A stretch of DNA of 64,000 nt. It comes from a virus. Taxonomy: Duplodnaviria; Heunggongvirae; Uroviricota; Caudoviricetes. Shown piece after piece: positions 27,524 through 47,247 of the stretch. The stretch is from positions 64,001-128,000 of IMG/VR virus record IMGVR_UViG_3300009709_000002. One strand, 5' to 3'. The position numbers and the translations under genes were made by a program. Numbering within the stretch: the stretch's first letter is position 1; every line of letters begins with the position of its first letter. The notes under the pieces are model-generated. The model was not told the origin of the DNA. It did not search any database and was given only the letters and a program-made list of their open reading frames with translations.

Positions 27524-27559
27524 TTTGCTTGCCTTTTCCTACGTGGTTAAAGTAAAGTC

Positions 27560-27588
27560 ATTTTAACACATAAGACTGGCATTGTAAA
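27560..27588 (-). promoter_or_regulatory. Sigma70-like promoter
   Basis: TTTACA-N17-TAAAAT. Confidence 0.7.
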
Positions 27589-27591
27589 TAC

Positions 27592-27616
27592 AAAAGGCTT
27601 CTTTTTGAAGCCTTTT
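27592..27616 (-). terminator. Terminator closing the tRNA region
   Basis: AAAAGGCTTC-TTTTT-GAAGCCTTTT directly after the last tRNA. Confidence 0.75.
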
Positions 27617-27620
27617 GTTT

Positions 27621-27703
27621 TGGTGCCCGCGATCGGACTCGAACCGACAAGCTTGCGCGGCGGATTTTAAGTCCGCTGTGTTTACCAATTTCACCACGCG
27701 GGC
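27621..27703 (-). tRNA. tRNA-Leu(TAA), canonical
   Basis: GCCCGCG acceptor, GCGGA-CTTAAAA-TCCGC, variable arm, TTCGAG, ACCA. Confidence 0.95.
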
Positions 27704-27710
27704 AGACGAC

Positions 27711-28103
27711 TTAAGCTGGAACTTCCTGAGTAGCTAACGCTGCTCGACCAGCTTCAGTGATCTTACCCAAATCAGTGATCCACTCGCGGTTGAGTAAGTA
27801 ATGCATGACATTTTCATATGCCAGACACGCTTCCCACTCACCGGTGTCGGTAAACTTTGTGCAAACTTTGAGCACGTTCACTTCATCATCGCGATGAACT
27901 TTCGAGTCAGAGAAACCATTAGCATCACGTGGCATCACACGCTTGTACTGCATGCTCACGAACGTAGATGTTCGGCTAGCGTTGATTCCGTAGCAGGTGA
28001 AGCCACCTTCATCCATTTCTCGCTGAAAGTTATCAGCTTCAGCGCGGTCATACGTAGTGAGCGCTTTGTACTCCATGGGTGCTAGACGGAGCTCACTCAT
28101 CAT
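27711..28103 (-). CDS. Hypothetical protein
   Basis: 130 aa, overlaps stop of the YqeY gene. Confidence 0.6.
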   Translation of the reverse strand: MMSELRLAPMEYKALTTYDRAEADNFQREMDEGGFTCYGINASRTSTFVSMQYKRVMPRDANGFSDSKVHRDDEVNVLKVCTKFTDTGEWEACLAYENVMHYLLNREWITDLGKITEAGRAALATQEVPA

Positions 28104-28537
28104 TGCAACCGATCAAAGACAGCGGCTGCGAGCTTGCCATCATAGTTGCCTGCGTGGTTTTCCTTCAGGAACTTCATCACGCTGCCCTTCGGTTCAGCCT
28201 TGATCGCGCAGCCGAACTTTTCGATGAGGATGGCTTCCAGCTCAGCTTCCGACAGTTGCTTCGGCAAGTAGCTGTTGAGGATAACTTCTTCAGCACGAAG
28301 ACGTTCCAGCTCAGGCTCATACTTCGACACGCCCTGCGTGAAGCGGTTGTCATCGAGGAATTTCTTGATGAGGCTGACAGCGTGCAGGTCGCTCTTCGGT
28401 TCATGCTTCAGACCTGGACGGCTTGCGTCAAGATCGATCTGGCCAACAAGCGTGCCGAGCAAGTCTTTCGCGACTTGGTTGCGGTCTTTCATCGCTTGAA
28501 TGCGAGCAGCTTTCAGCGTTTCATATAGCTTTGTCAT
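28100..28537 (-). CDS. GatB/YqeY domain protein
   Basis: LKAARIQAMKDRNQ..E..ILNSYLPKQLSEAEL..KGSVMK..GNYDGK pattern. Confidence 0.85.
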   Translation of the reverse strand: MTKLYETLKAARIQAMKDRNQVAKDLLGTLVGQIDLDASRPGLKHEPKSDLHAVSLIKKFLDDNRFTQGVSKYEPELERLRAEEVILNSYLPKQLSEAELEAILIEKFGCAIKAEPKGSVMKFLKENHAGNYDGKLAAAVFDRLQ

Positions 28538-28555
28538 ATCAACCTCTCTTTTATT

Positions 28556-28713
28556 TGGGTGGGCACCCCGCGGGATTCGAACCCGGGTCAGCTACAAGCT
28601 ATCGCAGATTCAATCTTGAGGGAGAGTCTAGAATCGCACTCAAAACAACCTGGTCTTTCCTGTATTGCAACGGCTTATCGGCCGCCGGCTTTTCCAATTA
28701 CCATAGGTACCCA
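28556..28713 (-). ncRNA. tRNA-like RNA with 78-nt variable arm
   Basis: Acceptor GGGTACC/GGTGCCC, D-loop with GG, arm GCGGC-CGATAA-GCCGT, long hairpin insert, GGTTCGAATCCC T-loop, CCA end. Confidence 0.75.
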
Positions 28714-28718
28714 TTAAA

Positions 28719-29021
28719 TTACTGCTTGTAAGGATAGTTGCAGCCCTTACGCAGCTTAAGACCTCTCGTGACTTTGCTATCCCACCGCGAAAACTTCGAT
28801 CGACGATAGAAATGTCGATGAATCTCAGCCGAGTAGTCACCTTGAGCATAGTGCAGCGCCATCTGAGGCGAGCTATACCACGTCGGTGAGCACATTCGCT
28901 TGATGCGACCATCTAACGATTGTACGAAATACTCGTAAGCTTCACGAGCGCCATAGCTTACCAGGTAGTGGTCAGGCATGACCTGCACTACCAACTTCCC
29001 ATACCGTCTTAGAAGTCTCAT
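28719..29021 (-). CDS. Hypothetical protein
   Basis: 100 aa, ATGA coupling to upstream ORF. Confidence 0.55.
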   Translation of the reverse strand: MRLLRRYGKLVVQVMPDHYLVSYGAREAYEYFVQSLDGRIKRMCSPTWYSSPQMALHYAQGDYSAEIHRHFYRRSKFSRWDSKVTRGLKLRKGCNYPYKQ

Positions 29022-29329
29022 TTTGTGATCTTGAGGAGCTCTTTCAGCTTCGCAACGACATCAGCCGGAGTAGCAGTATGGAAAAATGAGGCCAGCTCAT
29101 TACCTTTCTTGTCGGTGAACGTCAGCCACTCAGGTGTTTTACCCTTGTAGTGGACGTAGCACTTAACGACTGCTTCGCAAGTCATCGTGTGAATTACTGA
29201 TCGTCCAACATCAACGATCGCCTTGCCCTTTAGCTCGGTGAACGCTAGCTTGGCATGCTCGATAAACAGAGAAGCACTCCAACCCTTTGCGTCCAAGAAT
29301 TCATCCACGCTCTTGCTAAGCTTTGCCAT
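29018..29329 (-). CDS. Hypothetical protein
   Basis: 103 aa in tightly packed operon. Confidence 0.6.
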   Translation of the reverse strand: MAKLSKSVDEFLDAKGWSASLFIEHAKLAFTELKGKAIVDVGRSVIHTMTCEAVVKCYVHYKGKTPEWLTFTDKKGNELASFFHTATPADVVAKLKELLKITK

Positions 29330-29330
29330 A

Positions 29331-29516
29331 CTACCCCTCGTAGAACTCTATTTTTACGACCGGAACCACGACATCACTGATGTGTTCCCACTCAACAGAA
29401 ACAAACTTCAGTTTCTCGAATGCAGCGTCCGGTAACTTATTCACGATATCAGCTAAAACCGCCAGCTTGTCGGTAGATTTTGATTCTGACCGATTGCAAA
29501 TTTCGACTAAACTCAT
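29331..29516 (-). CDS. Hypothetical protein
   Basis: 61 aa, abuts downstream ORF. Confidence 0.5.
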   Translation of the reverse strand: MSLVEICNRSESKSTDKLAVLADIVNKLPDAAFEKLKFVSVEWEHISDVVVPVVKIEFYEG

Positions 29517-29562
29517 GGTACATCCAGAAAAGATATTATAAACTACCAGTGCGGCTTTGTAA

Positions 29563-29745
29563 CTACTTTTCTTTCAACTTTCGAATGCCGAAAGTGCGAA
29601 TGTCAGCCGGTTTCAGGCGGCCATACTTCTCTAATATGATGAACTTACCAGTGCGTTCGAGGAACTTGTCCTCGATTATCTCACCAGTTCGTAGAACGAT
29701 CCGCACCGTCGTACCTCTTCGGCAGGACGTGTGCGGTTGTCTCAT
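29563..29745 (-). CDS. Hypothetical basic protein
   Basis: 60 aa, ATGA coupling. Confidence 0.55.
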   Translation of the reverse strand: MRQPHTSCRRGTTVRIVLRTGEIIEDKFLERTGKFIILEKYGRLKPADIRTFGIRKLKEK

Positions 29746-30107
29746 GATGTAAAGTAAGCGCCGTTGAACAGCTCGTCGACCGTTTCAGCACCGAGATTCA
29801 ACATGGCGTTGACTCGATACTCTCGGTCGGGGTTGGCATTGAGGTGGATGTTTAAATCCGTGACGAATTCGTCGGTGAGCATGGTGTTCGGGATTTGCAC
29901 GTTATTGAACGTGTCCCATGAACGAATCTCCGCGGTGATGATTGCATTCTCGACGGAGATGATACGAACATCTGCTAGTGCCAACGACATGAGGTTATCC
30001 TTATGAGTAAGTACTGGCGGAAAACGGAGGTCTCGATCCCCAAGCCGATTTCTCGACTCCCACTGATTTCGAATCAGGTCCAGGCGCCCGCCTAGTTCGT
30101 TTTCCAA
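29742..30107 (-). CDS. Hypothetical protein
   Basis: 121-aa ORF, start uncertain. Confidence 0.5.
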   Translation of the reverse strand: MENELGGRLDLIRNQWESRNRLGDRDLRFPPVLTHKDNLMSLALADVRIISVENAIITAEIRSWDTFNNVQIPNTMLTDEFVTDLNIHLNANPDREYRVNAMLNLGAETVDELFNGAYFTS

Positions 30108-30112
30108 TTGAA

Positions 30113-30349
30113 TTAGCTGTGCTTCTTGTGAGTAGCTCTAGCTAATTCTATGAATTTTTCTTTGTCTTTTGCAAGACCTTTGAAACGATGATACAGCTCA
30201 AATGCTTCTTTGCCGACGATCCACTTGGAATGGGAACCACGTTCGCCTGGTTCCCTGATCCAGATGTAGAAATCCGTCGTTCTTCCAATCACAGCGTAAT
30301 GCGTCGTCGATTTGTAAGTTCCAACTTCCAGGTCAAATTTCATTTTCAA
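30113..30349 (-). CDS. Hypothetical protein
   Basis: GGAGG SD, packed operon. Confidence 0.55.
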   Translation of the reverse strand: MKMKFDLEVGTYKSTTHYAVIGRTTDFYIWIREPGERGSHSKWIVGKEAFELYHRFKGLAKDKEKFIELARATHKKHS

Positions 30350-30611
30350 CCTCCGTCATTTCTGCTCGACGCTTAGTTTCAGCGTTCTCATGAAAACGAA
30401 CACGAGTACGAACATACTTCTTAGCTCCAGCTTTGTTCTTTCTGGTGCGCTTCTTAGCGCTCACAGCAGACGTGTCTGGCACATGAGCTACTGCTGAAAT
30501 GATCTTGTCAGCGAGCTCAGAGTGTTCAAATCCACCACCAACAACGTACTTTCGTTGAAAGCTATTTGCAGCTCGTGTATCTTTGAAGCCACGTTGATGA
30601 TTCGTTTTCAT
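30333..30611 (-). CDS. Hypothetical basic protein
   Basis: Start MKTNHQRG with GGAG SD just after tRNA-Ser. Confidence 0.6.
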   Translation of the reverse strand: MKTNHQRGFKDTRAANSFQRKYVVGGGFEHSELADKIISAVAHVPDTSAVSAKKRTRKNKAGAKKYVRTRVRFHENAETKRRAEMTEVENEI

Positions 30612-30623
30612 GATCACTCCAAT

Positions 30624-30714
30624 TGGCGGAAAAGTACGGAATCGAACCGTTGCCAACTTACGCCAGCAGAACTCCTTTCCAGGGAGACCCCATCACCATC
30701 AGGGAAACTTTTCC
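30624..30714 (-). tRNA. tRNA-Ser(GGA)
   Basis: GGAAAAG/CTTTTCC-GCCA, loop CTGGAAA, long variable arm. Confidence 0.85.
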
Positions 30715-30722
30715 GTTTCTAG

Positions 30723-31034
30723 TCAAGCAAAAGCTGGACCAGGGAATCTCAATGTGTAGTACGGTTCAAGGTACTCACATGAATCTTCAGCTTCTGGGTA
30801 AAAACAATTCTTTTCCCAGTCACGTAATGCTTTGCGCCTCGGCCAATAGAAGTCCGTAATGATGCTCAGAACTTTACTATAAGCTTGTTCTTTGGTGCAG
30901 AAGGTGAAATATGCTTTCATATCACCTTCACGCAGAGCTGCAGCGATACCAGCTTTGCAAATTTTGATGACGTACTTCAGCTCATCAGCCGAGATGTTGT
31001 CGATGAGAACTTGAGTGTCGAGTAAAACTCCCAT
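30723..31034 (-). CDS. Hypothetical protein
   Basis: GGAGG SD, 103 aa. Confidence 0.6.
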   Translation of the reverse strand: MGVLLDTQVLIDNISADELKYVIKICKAGIAAALREGDMKAYFTFCTKEQAYSKVLSIITDFYWPRRKALRDWEKNCFYPEAEDSCEYLEPYYTLRFPGPAFA

Positions 31035-31045
31035 CGTAACCTCCG

Positions 31046-31258
31046 TTAAACTACTTCTTCCAAATGAGCGACTGGAATCGTGAAGCTCGGATAGTCACCA
31101 TTTACATCATGCGTCACCGAGATGTGTTGAATTCCGGTGAAACGAGTATCATCACTAGCCAGACCATAATCATGCTTCATCAATTCATACACGATCTGGC
31201 CTTCAGTTACTTCGCCGCTTGAATTTTCAGCATTCAACACTTTGTACTTTTTGACCAT
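31046..31258 (-). CDS. Hypothetical protein
   Basis: Likely start MVKKYKV; DYGLASDDTR motif. Confidence 0.55.
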   Translation of the reverse strand: MVKKYKVLNAENSSGEVTEGQIVYELMKHDYGLASDDTRFTGIQHISVTHDVNGDYPSFTIPVAHLEEVV

Positions 31259-31529
31259 GTTTTTCTTTTGGTATGTGTTTGTAGGTTCTCGGATCATACA
31301 GCTCATCGGTAAAATGCACGCCGATCTTATAATCCCAGAATTCAATCTTGTACTCACGACCCTCAAGCAGCTTACGAGTCATGTGCTTGTAGCTTCCATA
31401 AACAACACCATCAGTGCCTAAAGTACTCGTCCACATGAACAAATACTTCCAAAGCGTAGCTTCTGATTTCACCAAGGCGGCTTCAAGAGCTGCTTCTGGA
31501 TCTTTCTGAAATTCTTCTAGTGTCGTCAT
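31227..31529 (-). CDS. Hypothetical protein
   Basis: 100 aa after the tRNA-Arg-like gene. Confidence 0.55.
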   Translation of the reverse strand: MTTLEEFQKDPEAALEAALVKSEATLWKYLFMWTSTLGTDGVVYGSYKHMTRKLLEGREYKIEFWDYKIGVHFTDELYDPRTYKHIPKEKHGQKVQSVEC

Positions 31530-31537
31530 AGTAAACT

Positions 31538-31725
31538 TGGCAGCCCCGGCTTGGAATTGAACCCGCGACCCTCAGATTAGAAATCTGCCGCTCTAACGAA
31601 CGTATGTTGCGCTACCATCTCTGGTCATCAGCCTATGCATAAGCTTCAGAGTTTCAATGCAGTCTTCACACGTTGCGCTGTTTCATCTATGATCACTTGA
31701 CAAAACACCACTGAGCTACGGAGCC
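31538..31725 (-). tRNA. tRNA-Arg(TCT) interrupted by a ~111-nt insertion in the D-loop
   Basis: GGCTCCG-TA-GCTC-AGTGG-[31707..31597]-TTA-GAGC, CAGA-TTTCTAA-TCTG, imperfect T-arm, CGGGGCT-GCCA. Confidence 0.75.
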
Positions 31726-31737
31726 ATTGTAAAAATT

Positions 31738-31825
31738 TGGCGGAGGCTGTGAGATTCGAACTCACGGAGCTGTTACACTCGCCGGGTTTCAAAGCCGGTA
31801 CCTTAAACCACTCGGTCAAACCTCC
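31738..31825 (-). tRNA. tRNA-Ser(TGA)
   Basis: GGAGGTT/AGCCTCC-GCCA, loop TTTGAAA, long variable arm. Confidence 0.9.
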
Positions 31826-31830
31826 AGATA

Positions 31831-32184
31831 CTACCAGGTGATCTTCAACCCATAATGAATCATAGGCTCCTCATCACCAGTCGAACCAAGACCATTATAA
31901 ACCGTAGGTCTCGGCTTGTAAATTTCTACTTTGTAAGAAAGCGGTGCAGCTTCTAACCGCTCTTTCACCAGCAGCCAAAACGTTGGCGGCTTGAACCTAG
32001 CGTGCTCGAGAAGATGAATCTCACCGTGCGACGTCGGATCATATCCAAGATCGCCGGTGTAGATGTACTCAAACTTACCAGCATCTGCGTAAGCTACGAT
32101 CTTCTCATTCAGCACGATCAAAAATTGATCTACTGCGTTAGAAGAAAGCTTAGCTCTATTACGAGCTTCACAGGCAGTGATCAT
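31831..32184 (-). CDS. Hypothetical protein
   Basis: 117 aa in operon. Confidence 0.6.
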   Translation of the reverse strand: MITACEARNRAKLSSNAVDQFLIVLNEKIVAYADAGKFEYIYTGDLGYDPTSHGEIHLLEHARFKPPTFWLLVKERLEAAPLSYKVEIYKPRPTVYNGLGSTGDEEPMIHYGLKITW

Positions 32185-32186
32185 AT

Positions 32187-32591
32187 TTACAGACGTCCTT
32201 CACGACGAGCTTCATCCAAAGCAACTTGGATTTTCTTCTGCAACTCCGGGTGCTGAACAGGCATACCCGGATGCTCACGCGTAATATGCTTGATGATCAT
32301 GCGTGTGCGCCAGTTCTTGCGAGCTGACAAACCGGTTTTCGACGTGTGCTCCGACTTTTGAGCTTCGGACAACATCACGCGATACTTCTTGTGCTCACGG
32401 AGCTGTTCTTCCGTTAAACCGGTTTCCGACATCAGGCGACGAAGCAGCTTTGCTTCCTTACCGCCTGGTGCATGTGGCCCGGAGGGAATGCGCACGAGAC
32501 CTTGTGTAACGTAATCGCCTTCTTCAGAATCCCAAACCCAGCCCAGTACACGCTTTTTCTTCATGCAGCGAATTGCGCTCTTGGAAGCCAT
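32187..32591 (-). CDS. Hypothetical protein
   Basis: 134 aa, TAATG coupling. Confidence 0.65.
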   Translation of the reverse strand: MASKSAIRCMKKKRVLGWVWDSEEGDYVTQGLVRIPSGPHAPGGKEAKLLRRLMSETGLTEEQLREHKKYRVMLSEAQKSEHTSKTGLSARKNWRTRMIIKHITREHPGMPVQHPELQKKIQVALDEARREGRL

Positions 32592-33046
32592 TATGCAGCC
32601 TTCTTGATCATCTTGCGAATGCGCTTTGCAACGTCAGCTGCAGTTACGTCTTCACCGTAGCTGTCAGGCATGAACAGCTTTTCAGCTTGTTTTTCAGTCA
32701 GGTCGAAGAATGATTCAACAGCTTCCCATTCAGTGAGACCATCATAGTGGGGTACCAGCTTATGCTGGCTCTCACCGGTGACCAACGCAAAACCGAGCTT
32801 TTGAAACTCTGGCATCATACCAGCGTGTCCGACTGCGCAAGCAGAGTAGCCGCAATTTGGCTCATTGGCTGCTTTCTTCTTCACTCGGATAGCCGAAACA
32901 GCGCCAAGGAGCTTGCCAAAAGTCTTGAACTTGACGAAGTCTTCATGGATGATGCCACGATCACCCCAGTTCGAAAGATCAAAACCGATGGGAGACTTCA
33001 AAGTCTCCAGCTTAGTAGCTAGAAGCAGCAAACGTTCAATGTTCAT
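32591..33046 (-). CDS. Hypothetical protein
   Basis: 151 aa, CGYSACAVGHA motif. Confidence 0.65.
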   Translation of the reverse strand: MNIERLLLLATKLETLKSPIGFDLSNWGDRGIIHEDFVKFKTFGKLLGAVSAIRVKKKAANEPNCGYSACAVGHAGMMPEFQKLGFALVTGESQHKLVPHYDGLTEWEAVESFFDLTEKQAEKLFMPDSYGEDVTAADVAKRIRKMIKKAA

Positions 33047-33066
33047 GTGAATCTCTGTGTTATGTT

Positions 33067-33205
33067 TGGAGAGGAAGGTAGGATTCGAACCATACCATCC
33101 ACGTCTGGCCCTAACTTAAGGCGGTGGCCACCGCTTTCAGCTAGCTGTACAAGTTCGACGTGGACTACGACTTAGCGCCGCTGACCCACCAGGGTCATCT
33201 TCCCC
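33067..33205 (-). ncRNA. tRNA-like RNA with 69-nt branched variable arm
   Basis: Acceptor GGGGAAG/CTTCCTC-T-CCA, D-arm TGACCC-TGGT-GGGTCA, GCGGC-GCTAA-GTCGT arm, GTCCACGTC/GACGTGGAT-closed insert, GGTTCGAATCC. Confidence 0.8.
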
Positions 33206-33215
33206 ATAGAGGAAA

Positions 33216-33419
33216 CTAAACATCTACTTCTACTGCAACAAACTTGACGAGCCTGAACGTTCGATCAGGGTGCTTCTCACGAAGATCCTTGACCTTAGTC
33301 TTTGCAACTTCTTCGTCGCTAATCTGGAGCAACCCGTCGGGCTTCTCGAGATAGCGACGTTCCCAGCCGCGCTGGTACAAAATCTGGTAAAACGTTTCCG
33401 GCTCGTGCGCTTCAGTCAT
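33216..33419 (-). CDS. Hypothetical protein
   Basis: Likely start MTEAHEPE overlapping upstream stop. Confidence 0.5.
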   Translation of the reverse strand: MTEAHEPETFYQILYQRGWERRYLEKPDGLLQISDEEVAKTKVKDLREKHPDRTFRLVKFVAVEVDV

Positions 33420-33609
33420 ATGCGAACATCGATGCTTCGACATCACGCAGGTTGATCTTGTTGCGACGAGCCTGGCGATTCGAGTGCTTCTTGTCAACAG
33501 CGGAAACGTGGCGACGTTCGCCTTCATATGCGCGTTGATCCTTGGCCTTCGGACGACGTTCTTGCTTGCCGAAGGTGCTTTCGAAATCATTCATCGTGAT
33601 GCTTTGCAT
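33412..33609 (-). CDS. Small basic hypothetical protein
   Basis: AGGAG SD, own promoter upstream. Confidence 0.6.
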   Translation of the reverse strand: MQSITMNDFESTFGKQERRPKAKDQRAYEGERRHVSAVDKKHSNRQARRNKINLRDVEASMFAYD

Positions 33610-33680
33610 TTCTAATCTCCTAGAAGATTGAAAGAAGTTTGAGGTTTTAACGTTTCAGTTGTTTCCCTGACGTTAGAATA

Positions 33681-33709
33681 ATTATAACTCAAACTTTATG
33701 CAAAGTAAA
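33681..33709 (-). promoter_or_regulatory. Sigma70-like promoter
   Basis: TTTACT-N17-TATAAT. Confidence 0.75.
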
Positions 33710-33719
33710 CACTTTTCAA

Positions 33720-34076
33720 TCAATTTGTGCGAAATTCATTTGCTTGAAGTTCGCCACGTAATCCAGCCATGATGCGATTCCGATCTTTATGATCGATAGC
33801 TTCTAGGTGAGCATCAAAGGCATCACGTAGCGGCTCCCAAAGAGGAGAGAAGCCGCGAAAATCGTAGAAGCCACGAAGCAGGCTCAGCGATGCGTACAGA
33901 CCGATCTTCGCCGGTGTTTGTTCAATCGCCCAGTGGAATAGCTCATCAACCGTGCGAAAATCAATGCTGTCATTTGTGACTAGCTCATTGCGGTAGAAAG
34001 CTAGCAGGAAAGAGATTTCCTTGCTATCAGGATTGTTCAGGATGGCTTGTTGAACTTCTTTCAGCTTCATGATCAA
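33720..34076 (-). CDS. Hypothetical protein
   Basis: AGGAG SD after tRNA. Confidence 0.6.
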   Translation of the reverse strand: MIMKLKEVQQAILNNPDSKEISFLLAFYRNELVTNDSIDFRTVDELFHWAIEQTPAKIGLYASLSLLRGFYDFRGFSPLWEPLRDAFDAHLEAIDHKDRNRIMAGLRGELQANEFRTN

Positions 34077-34083
34077 CTCCTAG

Positions 34084-34158
34084 TGGTGGGCCGGGAGGGA
34101 GTCGAACCCTCATCAATCGGTTATGAGCCGAACGCTTTTACCGGTAAGCTAACGGCCC
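34084..34158 (-). tRNA. tRNA-Ile2/Met(CAT), Ile2-like body
   Basis: GGGCCG acceptor, loop CTCATAA, ACCA; lacks initiator features (no GGG/CCC anticodon stem). Confidence 0.85.
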
Positions 34159-34170
34159 AGCGTTTCAAAA

Positions 34171-34260
34171 TGGCGGAAGGTGTGAGGATCGAACTCACGC
34201 GCCAGTTTCCCAGCGGCTTCGGCTTAGCAGGCCGACCAATTGCCACTCTTGCAACCTTCC
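34171..34260 (-). tRNA. tRNA-Ser(GCT)
   Basis: GGAAGGT/ACCTTCC-GCCA, TCGGC-CTGCTAA-GCCGA, long variable arm. Confidence 0.9.
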
Positions 34261-34275
34261 ATGTTAAAAATGTTC

Positions 34276-34364
34276 CGGCGGAAGTATACAGAATCGAACT
34301 GTCACCGTATCTCTACAGTGGGCCGGGGTTCAAAGCCGGTTACCGCCCAGCGGTCCATACTTCC
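34276..34364 (-). tRNA. tRNA-Ser(TGA), atypical D-arm, ends CCG
   Basis: GGAAGTA/TACTTCC-G, loop TTTGAAC, long variable arm. Confidence 0.8.
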
Positions 34365-34372
34365 ATTATATA

Positions 34373-34471
34373 CTAAAACGTGAAGTTTGTAATGATGCCC
34401 AGAAAGAAAAGTAAGAAGGCAGCAACTAACACGCCAATCATCCAGTTACTAGCCGGTTTATTCGCAATCAT
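34373..34471 (-). CDS. Small membrane peptide (32 aa)
   Basis: GGAG SD; MIANKPASNWMIGVLVAAFLLFFLGIITNFTF. Confidence 0.5.
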   Translation of the reverse strand: MIANKPASNWMIGVLVAAFLLFFLGIITNFTF

Positions 34472-34481
34472 CAAAATCTCC

Positions 34482-34564
34482 TGGTAGGCGCTACGGGATT
34501 CGAACCCGTAAAAGCACGGGGTTTAAGCCCGTCAGCTGTACCGATTTACATTAGCCAAGCGCCC
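34482..34564 (-). tRNA. tRNA-Leu(TAA), short variable loop and enlarged D-loop
   Basis: GGGCGCT/AGCGCCT-ACCA, ACGGG-CTTAAAC-CCCGT. Confidence 0.85.
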
Positions 34565-34569
34565 AAATA

Positions 34570-34797
34570 CTACTTGTGAATGCTCGGCAGCGTACGAGCA
34601 TAATGCGGCAGATCTTCCTCATACTGGTGATCATTCAACCAGCTAAGGATCATCTCACCAGCTTTTACATCATCTCGTTCATAAAACAGTTCAGGCCAAG
34701 GACCTCTGATGAACATATTGACGAATCGTTGTCCTAGCCGCTGTTGATCACCAGCCGCCTGCTTATGAAGATATACAAACTTTTCGAAAGCTGCCAT
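34570..34797 (-). CDS. Hypothetical protein
   Basis: Likely start MAAFEKF; QRLGQRFVN motif. Confidence 0.55.
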   Translation of the reverse strand: MAAFEKFVYLHKQAAGDQQRLGQRFVNMFIRGPWPELFYERDDVKAGEMILSWLNDHQYEEDLPHYARTLPSIHK

Positions 34798-35068
34798 TAT
34801 TTCGGCTTTCCGCAGCAAGGGCAGAACGGTAGCTCCGGAGTTTCTACTTCAACCGGCAAACCGATCTTGATCGCTTTGTGATGAATCCCTTGATCTGCAG
34901 CAGCGGCGAAGATTTTATCACCACCCCAAGGGAGCTTGTAAAACTGGACCATCACTTTAACTTTCATATGCTCACATGAAAATGAGGAAACCGAGAATCA
35001 GCAAGACTACTATGACTACGCCAGCCTGCGTCCACTTATCATCCATGATGATTCCTTGTAGTTAATCT

Positions 35069-35153
35069 TGGTACCCCCCAATCGGACTCGAACCGATAAA
35101 GGCACTCTTTTTGAGAGAGCTAGCTGTGCCAAATTTGCATTAGCCATGGGGGC
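35069..35153 (-). tRNA. tRNA-Leu(CAA), short variable loop and enlarged D-loop
   Basis: GCCCCCA/TGGGGGT-ACCA, GCTCT-CTCAAAA-AGAGT. Confidence 0.85.
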
Positions 35154-35158
35154 AATGA

Positions 35159-35431
35159 TTACTGCTTGTTTTCGCTGTTCTTACCGATGTGGTAACCGTC
35201 ACAGCGCATGCACTTGTAATTGCTGAAGTACACGCCACGTTTCTTTGCCATCGCTTGTGCTGCTTTCACAGCAGAAGCTTTGGTATTGTACATCACCTTT
35301 GGTTTCCCATTATAGTTCTCATGAGAGCGCTTGTGAACGAGTCCAAAGAGGTGTCCTTTGAAGAGGTTCTTGATCAGCCGTGTAGCTGGTAGCTGATCTT
35401 TAAGCGCGAGAAGAATATTTCGTAACTTCAT
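35159..35431 (-). CDS. Hypothetical protein with YKCxxCxGYH motif
   Basis: Start MKLRNILL by ATGA coupling. Confidence 0.6.
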   Translation of the reverse strand: MKLRNILLALKDQLPATRLIKNLFKGHLFGLVHKRSHENYNGKPKVMYNTKASAVKAAQAMAKKRGVYFSNYKCMRCDGYHIGKNSENKQ

Positions 35432-35658
35432 TTCAGAGCATTTAGCATATTGATGCCAACACCAAACGCTGTGCCCATGCACCAATTGTATGAAACCCAC
35501 TCATCAGAATATGGCACGAGCTTCTTGCTTTGAAAGTGTTCCTTCAACGCATACTTGAAATTTTCATCAGCGAGAACTTCACGGATCGAAGCTTTATTCC
35601 ACTTCGTATTCTGAAGACATGCTTGATACGCTTCTTCAATCTTTTCGAGAGTACTCAT
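35428..35658 (-). CDS. Hypothetical protein
   Basis: ATGA coupling on both sides. Confidence 0.6.
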   Translation of the reverse strand: MSTLEKIEEAYQACLQNTKWNKASIREVLADENFKYALKEHFQSKKLVPYSDEWVSYNWCMGTAFGVGINMLNALK

Positions 35659-36128
35659 TTGGTTCCTTTCAACTCAGCCAGCTTTTCTTCCAGCTTCTTG
35701 ATCTCATCAGCTACTCGAGCAGCTTCTAATTCAGCCAGCTTCTTCTTAGCTAGCCTTATCAGAGTTGATTCCAAATCTCTTTGGTCAATTAGCCAAGCAG
35801 TTGGAATGCGAATTTCAATTCCCTTCCACTCTTCATAATGATCATACACTGTATAGCTTTCAATGACATCACCGAGATCTATGTCATCATTATGATCCCA
35901 CACTTCACGAGCGTGAGCGACATATTCCGAATTGATCAACGTCACCTTTAGCGTATCTTCCGATTCATGAAATCCAGTGACCTGAATGAGAAATCGGTGA
36001 TTCGGAATAGTGACATCATTGATGCCGTTGCAGTATTTCTTCCAAAGCGTACAGAATATTCTAATGCGCTTTGCAAGAGTTGATGCAGTTCCAAAAGCTA
36101 AAACTATGTCTGATTTAGAGTAGATCAT
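35655..36128 (-). CDS. Hypothetical protein with C-terminal coiled coil
   Basis: 157 aa, ATGA coupling. Confidence 0.6.
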   Translation of the reverse strand: MIYSKSDIVLAFGTASTLAKRIRIFCTLWKKYCNGINDVTIPNHRFLIQVTGFHESEDTLKVTLINSEYVAHAREVWDHNDDIDLGDVIESYTVYDHYEEWKGIEIRIPTAWLIDQRDLESTLIRLAKKKLAELEAARVADEIKKLEEKLAELKGTK

Positions 36129-36766
36129 ATTTGAAAATCAACTTCAAGAAAACTTGGTAAATCATGAATTGAAATTTCATCAATTAAGAACTTGTCCTTT
36201 TCAGATCCAAACATCATCCTAAATTTACTTCCATCATATTCTTTTATGACTTGACCATATTTTCGCTTATTATTATCGCTAAGCCAACCTTTTACTTCAA
36301 TGAATAGATCAAATTCTGGCAAATAAAAATCTGGTGTATAGTGCCGTGTTCTACTATATGGAAGTACTTTTCGTTCAAATTTGATTTGATTTTCAACAAA
36401 TTTGATAGCTACATCTCGCTCCCAAGTGCCTTGAACTTTTACACCATTTACTTCAAACCATTTAACATGAGACTCATTTGCTTCATTGCGCTTAATCGTT
36501 CGTAAAGAATGTTTACGTTTAGCCTCATCAGACCAAAGTTTCGGTGCAGCATTTTTGCTAGCTTCACTAATATCTCTGCGCTTTTTAGCTGCAACTTCGG
36601 CACTAAAAATCTCTTCATATTTCTTCCCTCTAGTGCTCAACGTCTTACCGAGATTGTTATGCACTGGAGGCTTGCCATTACGATGAATGATACACCATCT
36701 ATAATGTGCATTTAACGATTGGGGGTGATCAAATTCACGACCACATTCACAAACGTTATTCTTCAT
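36125..36766 (-). CDS. Zinc-finger plus PD-(D/E)xK endonuclease, homing-endonuclease-like
   Basis: CECGREF..LNAHYRWC N-terminus; YTPDFYLPEFDLFIEVKGW; AT-rich relative to neighbours. Confidence 0.75.
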   Translation of the reverse strand: MKNNVCECGREFDHPQSLNAHYRWCIIHRNGKPPVHNNLGKTLSTRGKKYEEIFSAEVAAKKRRDISEASKNAAPKLWSDEAKRKHSLRTIKRNEANESHVKWFEVNGVKVQGTWERDVAIKFVENQIKFERKVLPYSRTRHYTPDFYLPEFDLFIEVKGWLSDNNKRKYGQVIKEYDGSKFRMMFGSEKDKFLIDEISIHDLPSFLEVDFQI

Positions 36767-36855
36767 GGTACCCTTAGTCGGATTCGAACCGACAATACAC
36801 TTTCGTGGCTCTCGCTACTCAGGCGAGCGACTTTGCCTAATTTGTCCATAAGGGC
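36766..36855 (-). tRNA. tRNA-Leu(GAG)
   Basis: GCCCTTA/TAAGGGT-ACCA, CTCGC-CTGAGTA-GCGAG, long variable arm. Confidence 0.85.
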
Positions 36856-36859
36856 AATA

Positions 36860-37066
36860 TCATACTCGTTCTACGTAAAATTCGCCTTTACACACAGCAC
36901 GAGCAGGGTTGGTATCTAAACCGTAAGGATAGTCACGACCGGTGATTTCCTTTCGGAGAGCAATGACGCTTTCATGTACGCAGTATGGCTCGAGGTCCAT
37001 ATCCATGCCGCATGAAACACAACCATTACCACGAAGTCCATGACAGCTTTTATCTTCGTTTGCCAT
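36860..37066 (-). CDS. Small Cys-rich hypothetical protein
   Basis: 68 aa exactly filling the gap between two tRNAs. Confidence 0.55.
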   Translation of the reverse strand: MANEDKSCHGLRGNGCVSCGMDMDLEPYCVHESVIALRKEITGRDYPYGLDTNPARAVCKGEFYVERV

Positions 37067-37086
37067 GATATTCTCAAAAGTTTAGT

Positions 37087-37172
<86 letters not shown>

Positions 37173-37183
37173 ATTATACTACT

Positions 37184-37268
37184 TGGTGCGGAGAAGGGGA
37201 CTCGAACCCCTACGTCTCTAGGACACAGCGTTCTTAGCGCTGCAAGGCTACCATTACATCACCTCCGC
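37184..37268 (-). tRNA. tRNA-Leu(AAG)
   Basis: GCGGAGG/TCTCCGC-ACCA, CAGCG-CTAAGAA-CGCTG, long variable arm. Confidence 0.85.
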
Positions 37269-37279
37269 AATACAACTTC

Positions 37280-37363
37280 TGGTGGGGAGAGTAGGATTCG
37301 AACCTACGAAGTCGAAACAACGGATTTACAGTCCGCCCCCTTTGGCCGCTCAGGAACCTCCCC
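37280..37363 (-). tRNA. tRNA-Tyr(GTA), canonical
   Basis: GGGGAGG/TCTCCCC-ACCA, GAGCGGCCAAAGGG D-arm, loop CTGTAAA. Confidence 0.95.
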
Positions 37364-37375
37364 AGGGATTTACTA

Positions 37376-37457
37376 CGGTGGATGCACTAGGAATCGAACC
37401 TAGCTGCCAGAGGCCACGGGTTTACAGTCCGCTAAGTACACCAGTACAATTACATCC
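37376..37457 (-). tRNA. tRNA-Tyr(GTA), atypical D-arm, ends CCG
   Basis: GGATGTA/TGCATCC-A, GTAC-TGGT-GTAC, loop CTGTAAA. Confidence 0.8.
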
Positions 37458-37486
37458 AAATATTTGCAACGATTACGATAAAAGTA

Positions 37487-37515
37487 ATTCTATCACTAAC
37501 AGTCCATCATGTAAA
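37487..37515 (-). promoter_or_regulatory. Sigma70-like promoter inside the tRNA array
   Basis: TTTACA-N17-TAGAAT with TG extension. Confidence 0.7.
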
Positions 37516-37528
37516 CTTATTTGCAACT

Positions 37529-37619
37529 TGGTGGAGCACGGACGGAATCGAACCTCATGCCCAGAGGGAAGAGCTTTACAGGCTCCCGATAGCACCAGCC
37601 ATCCTTACTTACGCGCTCC
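37529..37619 (-). tRNA. tRNA-Tyr(GTA), highly atypical
   Basis: 8-bp acceptor GGAGCGCG/CGTGCTCC-ACCA, extra linker, GATGGC-TGGT-GCTATC D-arm, GGAGC-CTGTAAA-GCTCT. Confidence 0.75.
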
Positions 37620-37629
37620 ATTTACTTCT

Positions 37630-37708
37630 TGGTCCCCTCAGTGGGAGTCGAACCCACAAAATCTCTCGGTTCTGAGCCGAGCGGCTTTACCAAATTGCCC
37701 ATGAGGGG
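37630..37708 (-). tRNA. tRNA-Leu(CAG), short variable loop
   Basis: CCCCTCA/TGAGGGG-ACCA, CTCGG-CTCAGAA-CCGAG. Confidence 0.9.
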
Positions 37709-37722
37709 AGAAACAAGTCTTG

Positions 37723-37758
37723 AAAATCAACAGAGGCCTCTAAATAGAGGCCTCTGCT
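37723..37758 (-). terminator. Attenuator terminator (3:4 hairpin)
   Basis: CAGAGGCCTCT-ATTT-AGAGGCCTCTG then TTGATTTT, 14 nt before the first tRNA. Confidence 0.75.
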
Positions 37759-37811
37759 TTGAAAATCTTGTGTGAACTATATCACATATCGACCTTCAAA
37801 CCGACGCCTCT
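37746..37811 (-). promoter_or_regulatory. Antiterminator (2:3 helix)
   Basis: AGAGGCGTCGGTTTGAAGGTC (37811-37791) is complementary to GATTTTCAAAGCAGAGGCCTCT (37767-37746), which contains the terminator 5' arm. Confidence 0.75.
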
Positions 37812-37877
37812 CAATTCGCTATAGAGCGAATAAGATAGCAACGAGCTTGACAGTAAGGATATGTTGAAAGTGTTCAT
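37782..37877 (-). CDS. Putative attenuator leader peptide, 31 aa (MNTFNISLLSSSLLSYSLYSELRGVGLKVDM)
   Basis: ATG 5 nt after TATAAATA (leaderless); codons 6-20 are exclusively Ile(ATA)/Ser/Leu/Tyr. Confidence 0.8.
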   Translation of the reverse strand: MNTFNISLLSSSLLSYSLYSELRGVGLKVDM

Positions 37878-37882
37878 GATGT

Positions 37883-37890
37883 TATTTATA
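37883..37890 (-). promoter_or_regulatory. Late promoter TATAAATA
   Basis: Exact T4 late consensus; family motif seen at 11 other gene starts in the window. Confidence 0.75.
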
Positions 37891-37941
37891 AGAGTGGTGG
37901 AAAACTCATCCAAAATGGTTGGTGTCCAACCGATAGATGAA

Positions 37942-38613
37942 TTATATTCCAACTAGCTCTGAAAGTAAATTACTTTGTGGCATAGTTTTCAACATGCTCT
38001 TTGGGTACATGAAGTGGTAGTACTCTTGCTTGTGTCGCGTGCCATCATCAGCATGGTTAGCGCAATAACCACATCGAATCCAGTCATTGAAGGAACGGCA
38101 TGGAAAGTTTTTCACGTTCAATCCAAGGCCAGTTTTCATCGCATATCGTGCCAAATAATCTGCACGGTTCATCTCAACGAAACGATCATGACCCTTCATG
38201 TATGAGATGCGAGCGTGCTTCAAACAATTTTGAACTTGCCTGAAGATCTTCATGCCATAAAATTCCATGCAAGCTGCCTGGAATGATTGTAACACTCTAT
38301 CTCGATGGGTGAACATGGCATTATCATCATGCATCGCCATATTTGCGTAGGCGATAGGATGAAAATCGGAGTAGAAACTCATATCTTCATACCGAAAACC
38401 ATAGTCGAGACCAAGCAACATACCTTCAATGAAGGCACAATATTCATGGTATCCCATTGATTCTCTATTTGCGGTAGAAAAACCAGAGATCTCTTTTGTT
38501 GTCCCATTAAAGTGGGCCACGATTCCCCAGCCAATACCACGAAGCCGTCCAGATTTTTGACCTAAGATCTTAGCGCCGGCAGATCCATCTACGATGATTT
38601 GAATTTTGCTCAT
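37942..38613 (-). CDS. Ribonuclease H-like protein
   Basis: IIVDGSA..GWGIV, E, YSD, MKGH..NRADYLAR match the RNase HI pattern. Confidence 0.75.
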   Translation of the reverse strand: MSKIQIIVDGSAGAKILGQKSGRLRGIGWGIVAHFNGTTKEISGFSTANRESMGYHEYCAFIEGMLLGLDYGFRYEDMSFYSDFHPIAYANMAMHDDNAMFTHRDRVLQSFQAACMEFYGMKIFRQVQNCLKHARISYMKGHDRFVEMNRADYLARYAMKTGLGLNVKNFPCRSFNDWIRCGYCANHADDGTRHKQEYYHFMYPKSMLKTMPQSNLLSELVGI

Positions 38614-38950: not shown

Positions 38951-39079
38951 GTAAACCTCGAAAATAGAGCCCGTTCTATCTGAACGGCATGAAGGGCACT
39001 ACAGCCTCTTTTCTTAGTTTCATCTTTGCTATACAAAAAGCCCCGCTCGAGCGGGGTCTTATTGGTCTTACTTCAGCAA

Positions 39080-39307
39080 TTAAGCTGCAGTTGTGGTCGT
39101 CGTTGTTGCTGGTGCTACGACTGGAGCAACTACCGGTGCTACAACTGGAGCTGGCGTAACAACTGCGTCAGCAGCGTTCACAACATCAGTTACTGCCGTC
39201 GTGACAGAAACTTTCTTCGTGAAGAGGCCCTTAGCTGCATTCCAGATAGCAACCCACAGTGGCGAAAATGCTGCGCCAATTGCGATGCCGATGAGAACGT
39301 CTACCAT
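39080..39307 (-). CDS. Small membrane protein with PVVA repeats
   Basis: AGGAG SD, late motif 39357-39363, terminator 39036-39060. Confidence 0.65.
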   Translation of the reverse strand: MVDVLIGIAIGAAFSPLWVAIWNAAKGLFTKKVSVTTAVTDVVNAADAVVTPAPVVAPVVAPVVAPATTTTTTAA

Positions 39308-47227: not shown

Positions 47228-47247
47228 ATTCTTTTCTAAAAGAACAA

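What the first reader, a model, noticed from the sequence alone, without database searches (positions are those of the whole stretch)
33067..33205. tRNA-like RNA with non-decoding 5-nt loop and a 69-nt branched variable arm containing two palindromes
Seen: intact acceptor stem with CCA, 6-bp D-stem with TGGT tetraloop, anticodon-position arm GCGGC-GCTAA-GTCGT (like a Ser(GCT) loop lacking CT), bulged T-stem, and an insert closed by a 9-bp helix. The insert carries the self-complementary segments CAGCTAGCTG and GCGGTGGCCACCGC and a GTCGAA that resembles the GNCGAA motif of bacterial Y RNA Ro-binding stems. Inference: a structured tRNA mimic, possibly a nuclease decoy, a dimerising RNA, or the missing partner of the Ro60 protein at 45.5-47.1 kb.
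Basis: partly seen in the sequence, partly recalled or inferred. Interest (0 to 1): 0.72.

Follow-up and report, generated by a model that had tools for sequence, protein, structure and literature searches.

The report
Non-decoding tRNA look-alike, giant arm
A 360-kb soil phage carries, among its tRNA genes, a 139-base gene shaped like a tyrosine-type tRNA whose codon-reading loop is too short and whose side arm has grown into a 69-base rod; it is probably a tRNA mimic and not a translator, but no relatives or RNA data show that it is still in use.

Summary
The described structure is real. It lies on the minus strand (33205 to 33067), the strand of the whole Leu/Ser/Tyr tRNA array. It has a 7-bp acceptor stem plus U-CCA, a 6-bp D stem with a UGGU loop, a 5-bp arm with a 5-nt loop where the anticodon arm should be, a 69-nt insert closed by a 9-bp helix, and a T arm with one bulge. 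Folding predicts an unbranched rod for the insert, not a branched arm.

ARAGORN at default settings and Rfam do not call it. Its top half is closest to tRNA-Tyr.

The Ro60 link is not supported. The full YrlA motif is absent, the six bases present occur at chance frequency, the topology differs, and Ro60 lies 12.3 kb away.

I found no orthologue in XacN1, in 10 IMG/VR records or in any fetched locus. Three soil metagenomes hold strains 2.4-3.3% diverged with no indel in the RNA, but the per-site table was cut off before this region. No RNA run was listed.

Best reading, confidence 0.45: a working, non-decoding tRNA-derived RNA, possibly a decoy for nucleases that cut the tRNA-Tyr variable loop. 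Main rival, 0.28: a dead tRNA gene.

This scan has noted the same kind of object on other DNA and twice more in this genome.

The parts
33067..33205 (-). Whole 139-nt tRNA-shaped RNA gene. It fills the gap between ORF 33216-33590(-) and ORF 32591-33046(-), leaving spacers of 10 and 20 nt.
   Evidence: Self-match of model R1 is 176.8 bits.
33199..33205 (-). Acceptor stem, 5' strand (GGGGAAG).
   Evidence: Pairs listed. The same acceptor stem occurs in a normal phage tRNA-Tyr, L034 6548-6635.
33182..33197 (-). D arm: 6-bp stem (UGACCC/GGGUCA) with a UGGU tetraloop, the tRNA-Sec/allo-tRNA type.
   Evidence: Two of the phage's own tRNA-Tyr genes, at about 37376-37458 and 37531-37614, also show a D stem closed by a UGGU loop (sequences).
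33167..33181 (-). Anticodon-position arm GCGGC-GCUAA-GUCGU: a 5-bp stem (two G.U) with a 5-nt loop. The alternative is a 4-bp stem with the 7-nt loop CGCUAAG.
   Evidence: With the insert removed in silico, ARAGORN gives the CUA reading only at an 80% threshold.
33097..33165 (-). 69-nt insert at the variable-arm position, predicted to be an unbranched rod of 20 pairs with two internal loops and a GGCC tetraloop.
   Evidence: 12 listed foldings, all rods.: -26.5 kcal/mol, z = -2.53, 5 of 200 shuffles as good.
33154..33159 (-).
   Evidence: Present, but the full GNCGAAN0-1G is not matched and the motif occurs at chance frequency.
33138..33147 (-). 10-nt palindrome CAGCUAGCUG. In the rod, p62-67 pair with p90-95 and not with the palindrome's own other half.
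   Evidence: My own estimate is about 0.06 such palindromes expected by chance in 69 nt (60 positions x 4^-5; inference, no call).
33121..33134 (-). 14-nt palindrome GCGGUGGCCACCGC, the apical 5-bp hairpin with a GGCC loop.
   Evidence: The opposite-strand self-match of p62-95 at 82% identity shows that the upper rod is a near-perfect DNA palindrome.
33078..33095 (-). T arm GUA(U)GG-UUCGAAU-CCUAC. It equals the T arm of the phage's tRNA-Tyr at 37280-37363 plus one bulged U.
   Evidence: (alignment).
33067..33077 (-). Acceptor stem 3' strand (CUUCCUC), discriminator U and encoded CCA.
   Evidence: Ten of the 11 tRNAs that ARAGORN lists in 27001-38000 also end in an encoded CCA; Ser(UGA) at 34277-34364 is listed ending in CC.

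Best explanation
It is a tRNA-derived, non-decoding small RNA gene.

It descends from a class II tRNA, and its top half is nearest to tRNA-Tyr. It has kept everything that lets a transcript be handled as a tRNA: an acceptor stem with an encoded CCA, a T arm with a canonical T loop, and a Sec-like D arm that can form the elbow. It has lost the decoding end, because the loop has 5 nt instead of 7. Its variable arm has grown into a 69-nt rod.

Inferred steps, none of them shown:
1. It is transcribed with the flanking small ORFs of the tRNA array.
2. RNase P cuts it out at G1, and it is trimmed to its CCA.
3. It folds into an L shape with the rod projecting from the elbow side.
4. It acts by being bound as a tRNA rather than by reading codons.

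The role I think most likely is a decoy or competitor for host factors that recognise class II tRNAs. The main candidates are PtuAB-type nucleases (retron-Eco7, Septu), which cut tRNA-Tyr in its variable loop. This phage also carries three divergent tRNA-Tyr genes.

Confidence 0.45 applies to 'functional non-decoding tRNA-like RNA'. The decoy mechanism alone is worth about 0.15.
For: Structure:
- All five helices are fully paired, and the fold beats 200 of 200 shuffles.
- It is strand-specific. Five G.U pairs become A.C mismatches on the other strand, which folds 10 kcal/mol worse.
- It lies on the strand of the whole array and fills its intergenic gap exactly.

Ancestry:
- The best in-window matches of its covariance model are two tRNA-Tyr(GUA) genes, at 20.7 and 19.1 bits.
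- The best match anywhere is a normal phage tRNA-Tyr with an identical acceptor stem and T arm, L034, 30.6 bits.
- A plain alignment ranking of 58 sequences puts that tRNA-Tyr and the phage's own tRNA-Tyr first.
- The A8-U9 + long D stem + UGGU design is shared with the phage's second tRNA-Tyr gene.

Not a decoder: ARAGORN and Rfam reject it.

Persistence: contigs of three soil runs from three studies, 2.4-3.3% diverged, cross the RNA without an indel. These are X2 record 5, X3 record 11 and X4 record 18; all four listed gaps of the X2 record lie at 32482-32550.

Pattern: two more oversized tRNA-shaped RNAs lie within 5 kb, according to earlier notes e1-5691995 and e1-5691994. I read the sequence and MFE of the first only.

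Literature (passages read):
- A phage tRNA-Tyr neutralises it only if it keeps its longer variable loop (PMC12673091).
Against: - There is no orthologue outside near-identical strains: 0 of 10 IMG/VR records, none in XacN1, none in 29 fetched loci, and no GenBank phage match.
- So there is no covariation evidence at all.
- The per-site substitution table was cut at 32482. I therefore cannot say whether the RNA evolves more slowly than its flanks. The absence of indels over 139 nt at 3% divergence is weak evidence.
- No RNA data exist.
- The bulged T stem, A8 in place of U8, and U73 are what decay would also produce.
- The Tyr affinity rests mainly on the 3' 30 nt. The 5' 40 nt resemble nothing closely (score 8 of 40), and XacN1 Ser and Gly tRNAs score 25-26 bits.
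- The host and its defence systems are unknown.
- The structure paper could not place the PtuB active site on the variable loop, so what PtuAB recognises is unresolved.
Confidence: 0.45

Rival explanations
1. Dead gene: a duplicate of a class II tRNA that lost two anticodon-loop bases, took an insertion or expansion in its variable arm and a 1-nt insertion in the T stem, and is now decaying.
For: - The 5-nt loop, the T-stem bulge, U73 and A8 are all departures from a working tRNA.
- There is no orthologue anywhere I searched.
- No tRNA finder accepts it at default settings.
- The XacN1 authors also list a tRNA pseudogene in their array (PMC5852040, passage read).
Against: - All 32 pairs of the cloverleaf frame and all 20 of the rod are intact, although the 5' 40 nt are very diverged from every tRNA compared.
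- The insert sits exactly where a class II variable arm emerges and forms its own stable helix.
- The encoded CCA is kept.
- Three diverged strains show no indel.
Confidence: 0.28
2. Processing signal: the tRNA shape serves only as an RNase P cut site that separates and stabilises the mRNAs of the two flanking ORFs, like the t-elements of plant mitochondria. Only the acceptor/T half would then be under selection.
For: - It sits 10 nt after one ORF and 20 nt before the next, on the same strand.
- The top half is canonical while the decoding half has degenerated.
- No significant promoter or terminator signal separates the three units: 3 promoter-like sites against 1.4 expected, 1 terminator-like site against 2.3 expected.
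Against: - It does not explain an intact 20-pair rod or an intact anticodon-position stem.
- Ordinary tRNAs in the array would do the same job.
- It was not tested.
Confidence: 0.1
3. Y-RNA-like partner of the phage Ro60: the rod carries the Ro-binding site and the tRNA body mimics the tRNA-like module of YrlA.
For: - The phage has a Ro60 gene with TROVE and VWA domains.
- I found no recognisable Y RNA next to it: no Rfam match in 43.5-49.5 kb, and no minus-strand T-loop word in 45.5-48 kb; the only two hits there, at 45841 and 47839, are on the plus strand.
- GUCGAA lies on the 5' strand at the top of the basal helix.
- In 3 of 3 other Ro60 phages that I opened, tRNA genes lie within 4 kb of Ro60.
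Against: - The full motif GNCGAAN0-1G is not met and its frequency is chance.
- The motif is internal, not near the 5' end.
- The ends are at an open acceptor stem, whereas YrlA has a closed one (PMC4201824 section 6).
- Ro60 is 12.3 kb away, against 'within 4 kb' in that paper.
Confidence: 0.08
4. Odd amber-suppressor tRNA: the closing C-G pair opens to give the 7-nt loop CGCUAAG with anticodon CUA, as in classical tyrosine suppressors (recalled).
For: - With the insert removed in silico, ARAGORN at an 80% threshold reads tRNA(cta).
- The body is Tyr-like.
Against: - That reading has G33 instead of U33, a 4-bp stem with two G.U pairs, a 69-nt arm and U73.
- It is not called at default or 90% thresholds.
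- The genome shows no TAG recoding: stop-to-stop ORFs of 80 aa or more cover 93% of the genome under the standard code, the low-coverage bins coincide with tRNA clusters, and TAG ends 35 of 378 long ORFs.
- A normal-looking tRNA(CUA) already exists at genome 277432-277506.
Confidence: 0.04
5. DNA-level element: the near-perfect 34-bp palindrome is a protein-binding or recombination site, or a small mobile hairpin that landed in a tRNA gene.
For: - There are two perfect palindromes, and p62-95 matches its own reverse strand at 82% identity.
Against: - There is no second copy in the 360-kb genome.
- The 20-nt apex has no exact match in IMG/VR.
- G.U pairs make the fold better on the RNA strand.
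Confidence: 0.05

Closest known systems
Phage T4 stable RNAs rnaC (species 1, 139 nt) and rnaD (species 2), annotated in NC_000866 at 70908-71046 and 71053-71171
   Same: - Encoded inside a phage tRNA cluster, on the tRNA strand.
- The length is the same by coincidence.
- rnaC has a canonical T arm (CCGGG-UUCGAAU-CCCGG) just before its 3' end.
- No decoding loop.
- I recall that its function is unknown; no paper read here says so.
   Different: - rnaC does not fold as a cloverleaf: a long 5' hairpin and a second hairpin precede the T arm.
- Model R1 aligns only the T arm and a terminal stem, at 15.4 bits.
- There is no encoded CCA in the annotated rnaC sequence.
- There is no detectable homology.
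YrlA / bacterial Y RNAs (Chen et al. 2014, PMC4201824)
   Same: - A tRNA-like module with D and T arms, plus a helical extension.
- A Ro60 gene is in the same genome, on the same strand.
- Yrn1 of D. radiodurans also has a shortened (6-nt) 'anticodon loop'.
   Different: - The topology is the other way round: YrlA ends lie in the Ro-binding stem and its 'acceptor' is a closed hairpin.
- The motif GNCGAAN0-1G is not met.
- It lies 12.3 kb from Ro60, against 4 kb or less.
allo-tRNAs and tRNA-Sec-like tRNAs (Mukai et al. 2016/17, PMC5389517)
   Same: - A long D stem with a tetraloop and a long variable arm.
- Found in phage tRNA clusters and in forest and peat soil data.
- Neighbouring tRNAs of this array score best with the tRNA-Sec model.
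   Different: - The acceptor/T branch here is 7/5 with a bulge, not 8/4 or 9/3.
- The loop has 5 nt.
- The variable arm is several times longer.
- The Rfam tRNA-Sec model gives no match at E up to 10.
Phage tRNA-Tyr genes that neutralise retron-Eco7 or Septu (PMC11555353, PMC12673091, PMC13096335)
   Same: - A Tyr-type body in a phage.
- The variable loop is the part that matters for evasion: a longer loop protects.
- The phage multiplies its Tyr genes.
   Different: - Those are working tRNAs with a GUA anticodon and a variable loop only a few nt longer.
- This RNA cannot decode and has a 69-nt arm.
- No defence system or host is known for this phage.

Membership tests
Canonical tRNA (Rfam RF00005) | Score at or above the family threshold, or a call by a tRNA finder | tested here: not met
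   No RF00005 match at gathering score, at E<=10 on 32900-33400 or at E<=1 on 27000-38500. ARAGORN finds nothing at default settings, with or without introns.
Canonical tRNA (Rfam RF00005) | 7-nt anticodon loop with U33 on a 5-bp stem | tested here: not met
   5-nt loop GCUAA on a 5-bp stem. The only 7-nt alternative has G33 and a 4-bp stem.
Canonical tRNA (Rfam RF00005) | Acceptor stem, T arm with a T loop, and a CCA end | tested here: met
   7-bp acceptor stem, UUCGAAU T loop and encoded CCA. The T stem has one bulged U.
tRNA-Sec / allo-tRNA | 6-bp D stem with a 4-nt loop | tested here: met
   UGACCC-UGGU-GGGUCA. The feature is described in PMC5389517.
tRNA-Sec / allo-tRNA | 8/5, 9/4, 8/4 or 9/3 acceptor/T branch | tested here: not met
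   7 + 5 pairs with a bulge. A8 faces C128, so no eighth pair can form.
tRNA-Sec / allo-tRNA | Match to Rfam RF01852 | tested here: not met
   No match, whereas four neighbouring tRNAs match it at 28-36 bits, below the gathering score of 47.
YrlA / Y RNA | GNCGAAN0-1G near the 5' end | tested here: not met
   GUCGAACU at p47-54, with no G at +1 or +2. GNCGAANG has no match in 33067-33205. Motif definition from PMC4201824.
YrlA / Y RNA | Encoded within 4 kb of Ro60 on the same strand | tested here: not met
   Same strand, but 12.3 kb separate 33205 from 45524.
YrlA / Y RNA | RNA ends in the Ro-binding stem, with the tRNA-like 'acceptor' closed by a loop | tested here: not met
   The ends form an open acceptor stem with CCA. 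The paper's description was read.
YrlA / Y RNA | Match to a Y-RNA covariance model | tested here: inconclusive
   No Rfam family matched. Three other Ro60-encoding phage loci used as a control also gave no Y-RNA family, so I cannot tell whether this library can detect phage YrlA.
YrlA / Y RNA | Binds Ro60 | not testable with these tools
   Needs a pull-down.
T4 rnaC-type stable RNA | Sequence or structure homology to rnaC | tested here: not met
   R1 against the T4 locus: 15.4 bits, T arm and terminal stem only. The rnaC MFE is not a cloverleaf.
T4 rnaC-type stable RNA | Accumulates as a stable small RNA processed from the tRNA transcript | not testable with these tools
   No RNA run was listed.

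The most novel reading that the evidence does not exclude
The RNA is an RNA anti-defence factor. It would be a tRNA-Tyr body stripped of its anticodon and fitted with a 69-nt rod where PtuAB-type nucleases (Septu, retron-Eco7) cut tRNA-Tyr. It would occupy or jam such nucleases without entering translation. With the two other oversized tRNA-shaped RNAs of the same array, it would make a set of 'tRNA-scaffold decoys' that a giant phage carries beside its spare tRNAs.
Probability: 0.13. Interest if true: 0.8.

Novelty: new variant of a known kind. Interest (0 to 1): 0.45.

Why it matters
Phages are now known to win against tRNA-cutting defences by bringing their own tRNAs, and for tRNA-Tyr the variable loop decides the outcome. 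A tRNA-Tyr-like RNA that has given up decoding and enlarged exactly that arm would be the first purely decoy form of this strategy. It would also give a testable function to the long-unexplained class of tRNA-like stable RNAs in phage tRNA clusters. If it is instead a dead gene, it shows how a class II tRNA decays, and it warns against reading function into every cloverleaf.

Tried and rejected
Searches for relatives that gave nothing useful:
- GenBank phages by DNA with 900 nt around the RNA: no match. With the two flanking ORFs as proteins: one distant hit and none.
- IMG/VR with the downstream ORF alone: none. With an alignment of it (A1): 9 loci at 33-41% identity, with no tRNA and no R1 match.
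- JGI metagenomes with A1: 5 loci at 30-42% identity, with no tRNA and no R1 match.
- GTDB genomes with A1: 1 MAG locus, no R1 match there.
- IMG/VR DNA patterns. D arm plus T loop: 0. The 3' 21-mer: 2 loci, a normal tRNA-Tyr and a lone 102-nt tRNA fragment that may be an attachment-site remnant. A Tyr2-type D arm plus anticodon arm: 0. The rod apex: 0.
- YqeY neighbours of the sibling RNA: 3 loci, no R1 match.
- Whole records behind 10 IMG/VR loci: 0 of 10 with an R1 match at E<=1.
- XacN1: only ordinary class II-shaped tRNAs, plus one 147-nt hit that lies inside rIIB on the opposite strand.
- The two closest homologues of the downstream ORF (P0002 and P0003, 50% identity) could not be fetched.

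Expression: no RNA holder was listed.

Variation: laid four soil and moss runs, but its table of other letters stops at 32482 ('226 more are not shown').

Tests that were negative or not significant:
- A relic of the Tyr variable arm in the insert (UCGAACUU against UCGACUU): p = 0.11 and 0.21 against shuffles, not significant.
- Promoter and terminator scans: at chance level.
- Neighbour ORF function: no Pfam family, and the Atlas returns only phage hypothetical proteins.
- The 899-aa ORF used to look for cultured relatives matched only through a cellulase-like C-terminal domain.
- The Rfam control for YrlA gave no positive.

Literature: four searches found no paper describing a phage tRNA-like RNA with a giant variable arm. 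Supplements were closed, so the phage YrlA list of PMC4201824 and the XacN1 tRNA table were not seen.

Full report
WHERE IT LIES. The window is bases 64001-128000 of a 360,227-bp IMG/VR virus record with direct terminal repeats. ARAGORN finds 51 tRNA genes and one tmRNA in the genome. Eleven of the tRNAs and the tmRNA lie in this window, all on the minus strand, and ten of those eleven are Leu, Ser or Tyr, with one Met. The finding sits inside this array, on the same strand. It fills the gap between ORF 33216-33590 (stop 10 nt upstream) and ORF 32591-33046 (start 20 nt downstream).

THE OBSERVATION.
- a 7-bp acceptor stem (one G.U), then U and CCA;
- a 6-bp D stem with a UGGU loop;
- the arm GCGGC-GCUAA-GUCGU;
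- one A;
- a 69-nt insert closed by nine pairs;
- one G;
- a T arm of five pairs with a bulged U and the loop UUCGAAU.

The MFE is -56.0 kcal/mol with z = -2.83, and no shuffle out of 200 folds as well. The strict cloverleaf scores -54.9. The plus strand reaches only -46.1 with z = -1.55, because five G.U pairs become mismatches there. This is therefore an RNA-strand structure, not merely a DNA palindrome.

Two details do not hold. The insert is not predicted to branch: the MFE and all 12 listed foldings, which span 1.1 kcal/mol, are single rods, and the insert alone has z = -2.53. The 'Y-RNA motif' is only GUCGAA. The published motif is GNCGAAN0-1G (PMC4201824, section 6 read). It is not met, and GNCGAANG occurs 34 times in the window against 32.5 expected.

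IT IS NOT A NORMAL tRNA. ARAGORN does not call it, with or without the intron option. Rfam gives no tRNA, tRNA-Sec or other family at the gathering score, at E<=10 locally, or at E<=1 over the array. If the insert is removed in silico, ARAGORN calls the rest only at an 80% threshold. It then opens the C-G pair that closes the loop and reads anticodon CUA in the loop CGCUAAG. That reading needs G33, a 4-bp stem with two G.U pairs and U73. The genome shows no TAG recoding: stop-to-stop ORFs of 80 aa or more cover 93% of it under the standard code, and the low-coverage bins coincide with tRNA clusters. I give decoding 4%.

WHAT IT DERIVES FROM. I built a covariance model from the single sequence and its cloverleaf (R1).
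- In the array, its best matches after itself are two tRNA-Tyr(GUA) genes, 37280-37363 (20.7 bits) and 37376-37457 (19.1 bits).
- The 3' 21-mer has two exact matches in IMG/VR. One is an ordinary phage tRNA-Tyr(GUA) with the same acceptor stem (GGGGAAG/CUUCCUC) and the same T arm; it scores 30.6 bits, the best anywhere.
- The T arm equals that of the phage's first tRNA-Tyr plus one inserted U.
- The A8-U9, long D stem and UGGU loop are shared with the second Tyr gene, and a UGGU-loop D arm with a third at about 37531-37614.
- A simple alignment ranking of 58 tRNAs puts the IMG/VR Tyr and the phage's first Tyr on top.

The case has limits. The 5' 40 nt resemble nothing closely, and XacN1 Ser(GCU), Ser(UGA), a long-armed Gly(UCC) and Lys(UUU) reach 25-26 bits. 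'Class II tRNA, top half nearest Tyr' is what the data carry.

CONSERVATION. This is the weak point. I found no orthologue in any of these:
- GenBank phages;
R1 finds only ordinary tRNAs there, plus one hit inside rIIB;
- the whole records behind ten IMG/VR loci (0 of 10);
- 29 fetched loci;
- four IMG/VR pattern scans.

Homologues of the downstream ORF in other phages have no tRNA-like gene beside them (0 of 9 IMG/VR loci), so the adjacency is not conserved.

Near-identical strains do exist. Contigs of three soil runs from three studies cross the RNA at 2.4-3.3% divergence and without an indel. The table that lists the changed positions was cut at 32482, so I do not know whether the RNA changes more slowly than its flanks.

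THE Ro60 IDEA. ORF 45524-47146 is a Ro60 orthologue with TROVE and VWA domains. Rfam finds no Y RNA within 43.5-49.5 kb. The upstream spacer holds only a terminator-like hairpin. No T-loop word lies near it on its strand.

The candidate fails each YrlA criterion that I could test: motif, position of the motif, topology and distance. My Rfam control on three other Ro60 phages also returned no Y-RNA family, so the Rfam negative by itself says little. In all three of those phages tRNA genes lie within 4 kb of Ro60, which keeps a low-probability link alive. I give it 8%.

MECHANISM. What is shown:
- a complete, strand-specific cloverleaf;
- an encoded CCA;
- a T loop and a D loop with the GG needed for the elbow;
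- a loop too short to decode;
- a stable rod at the variable-arm position;
- Tyr-like ancestry of the top half.

What is inferred: co-transcription with the array, RNase P and 3' processing, an L shape with a projecting rod, and action by being bound as a tRNA.

Passages I read give a concrete candidate. [quoted passage not shown] Septu cuts the same loop, and the authors suggest that phage tRNA-Tyr may be a decoy or a supplement (PMC13096335). Phage tRNAs as a general escape route are described in PMC11555353.

A Tyr-type body without an anticodon and with a 69-nt arm, in a phage that also keeps three divergent Tyr genes, fits a decoy. Nothing here tests that, and the host is unknown.

The main rival is a dead gene. 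The intact pairing of all 52 pairs, the exact placement of the insert, the kept CCA and the two sibling oversized RNAs argue against it. The lack of orthologues and the several tRNA defects argue for it.

COMPARISON WITH THE KNOWN. T4 rnaC is the classical unexplained stable RNA of a phage tRNA cluster and is also 139 nt long. It is not a cloverleaf and shares only a T arm with this RNA. The D arm is of the tRNA-Sec/allo-tRNA type described from phage clusters and forest and peat soils (PMC5389517), but the 8/4 or 9/3 branch is missing. I therefore file the finding as a new variant of the known, loosely defined kind 'tRNA-like stable RNA of phage tRNA clusters', and not as a member of any defined family. 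Earlier notes of this scan describe the same kind on other DNA and twice more in this genome. I re-read only the sibling's sequence.

VERDICT. The Ro60 link is unsupported and function is unproven. Interest 0.45.

Noticed in passing
window 28556-28713 (-): A second oversized tRNA-shaped RNA (158 nt). Its anticodon-position arm, GCGGC-CGAUAA-GCCGU, has a 6-nt loop, and a long arm sits at the variable position. Its D arm looks Leu-like, so it is not a close paralogue of this finding.
   Followed up: partly
window 30628-30714, 34280-34364, 37379-37458, 37534-37614 (-): Four tRNAs of the array (Ser GGA, Ser UGA and two Tyr GUA) score best with the Rfam tRNA-Sec model (28-36 bits, below its threshold of 47). 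The array therefore holds a set of Sec/allo-tRNA-shaped decoders.
   Followed up: partly
window about 35068-35152 (-): A tRNA-like gene with a T loop at 35085-35093, an anticodon loop reading CAA (Leu), no long variable arm and an encoded CCA. ARAGORN and Rfam both missed it.
   Followed up: no
genome 277432-277506 (-), outside the window: A tRNA with anticodon CUA (amber suppressor) in a genome that shows no sign of TAG recoding; TAG ends 35 of 378 long ORFs. The XacN1 paper reports two CUA suppressors, also without targets.
   Followed up: partly
L033 7694-7795: A lone 102-nt tRNA-like stretch in a 46-kb IMG/VR contig. Its 3' 26 nt are those of a tRNA-Tyr, it has no anticodon arm and it ends in ACUA. 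It scores 19.7 bits with the Rfam tRNA model, below threshold. It may be an attachment-site remnant.
   Followed up: partly
L021 1501-1586 (XacN1 39053-39138): XacN1's annotated tRNA-Gly(UCC) is 86 nt long, with a long variable arm, a 4-bp D stem with a 4-nt loop, and U73. It is a class II-shaped glycine tRNA.
   Followed up: no
L039, L040, L041: In three other phages (Streptomyces Alone3, Gordonia VanLee, Brevundimonas Marchewka) the Ro60 gene has tRNA genes within 4 kb. In Marchewka a permuted tmRNA lies 2.4 kb downstream.
   Followed up: no
window 47240-47300 (-): A strong hairpin (GGUGAUAGAUCGAAAGGUCUAUCACC) followed by a U-rich run lies between ORF 47320-47874 and the Ro60 start. It is probably a terminator, so Ro60 may have its own promoter.
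   Followed up: no
window 6287-8986 (+): The C-terminal 360 aa of this 899-aa ORF are 51-55% identical to cellulase/glycoside-hydrolase tail proteins of Erwinia, Serratia and Klebsiella phages. That hints at a cellulose-coated host.
   Followed up: no
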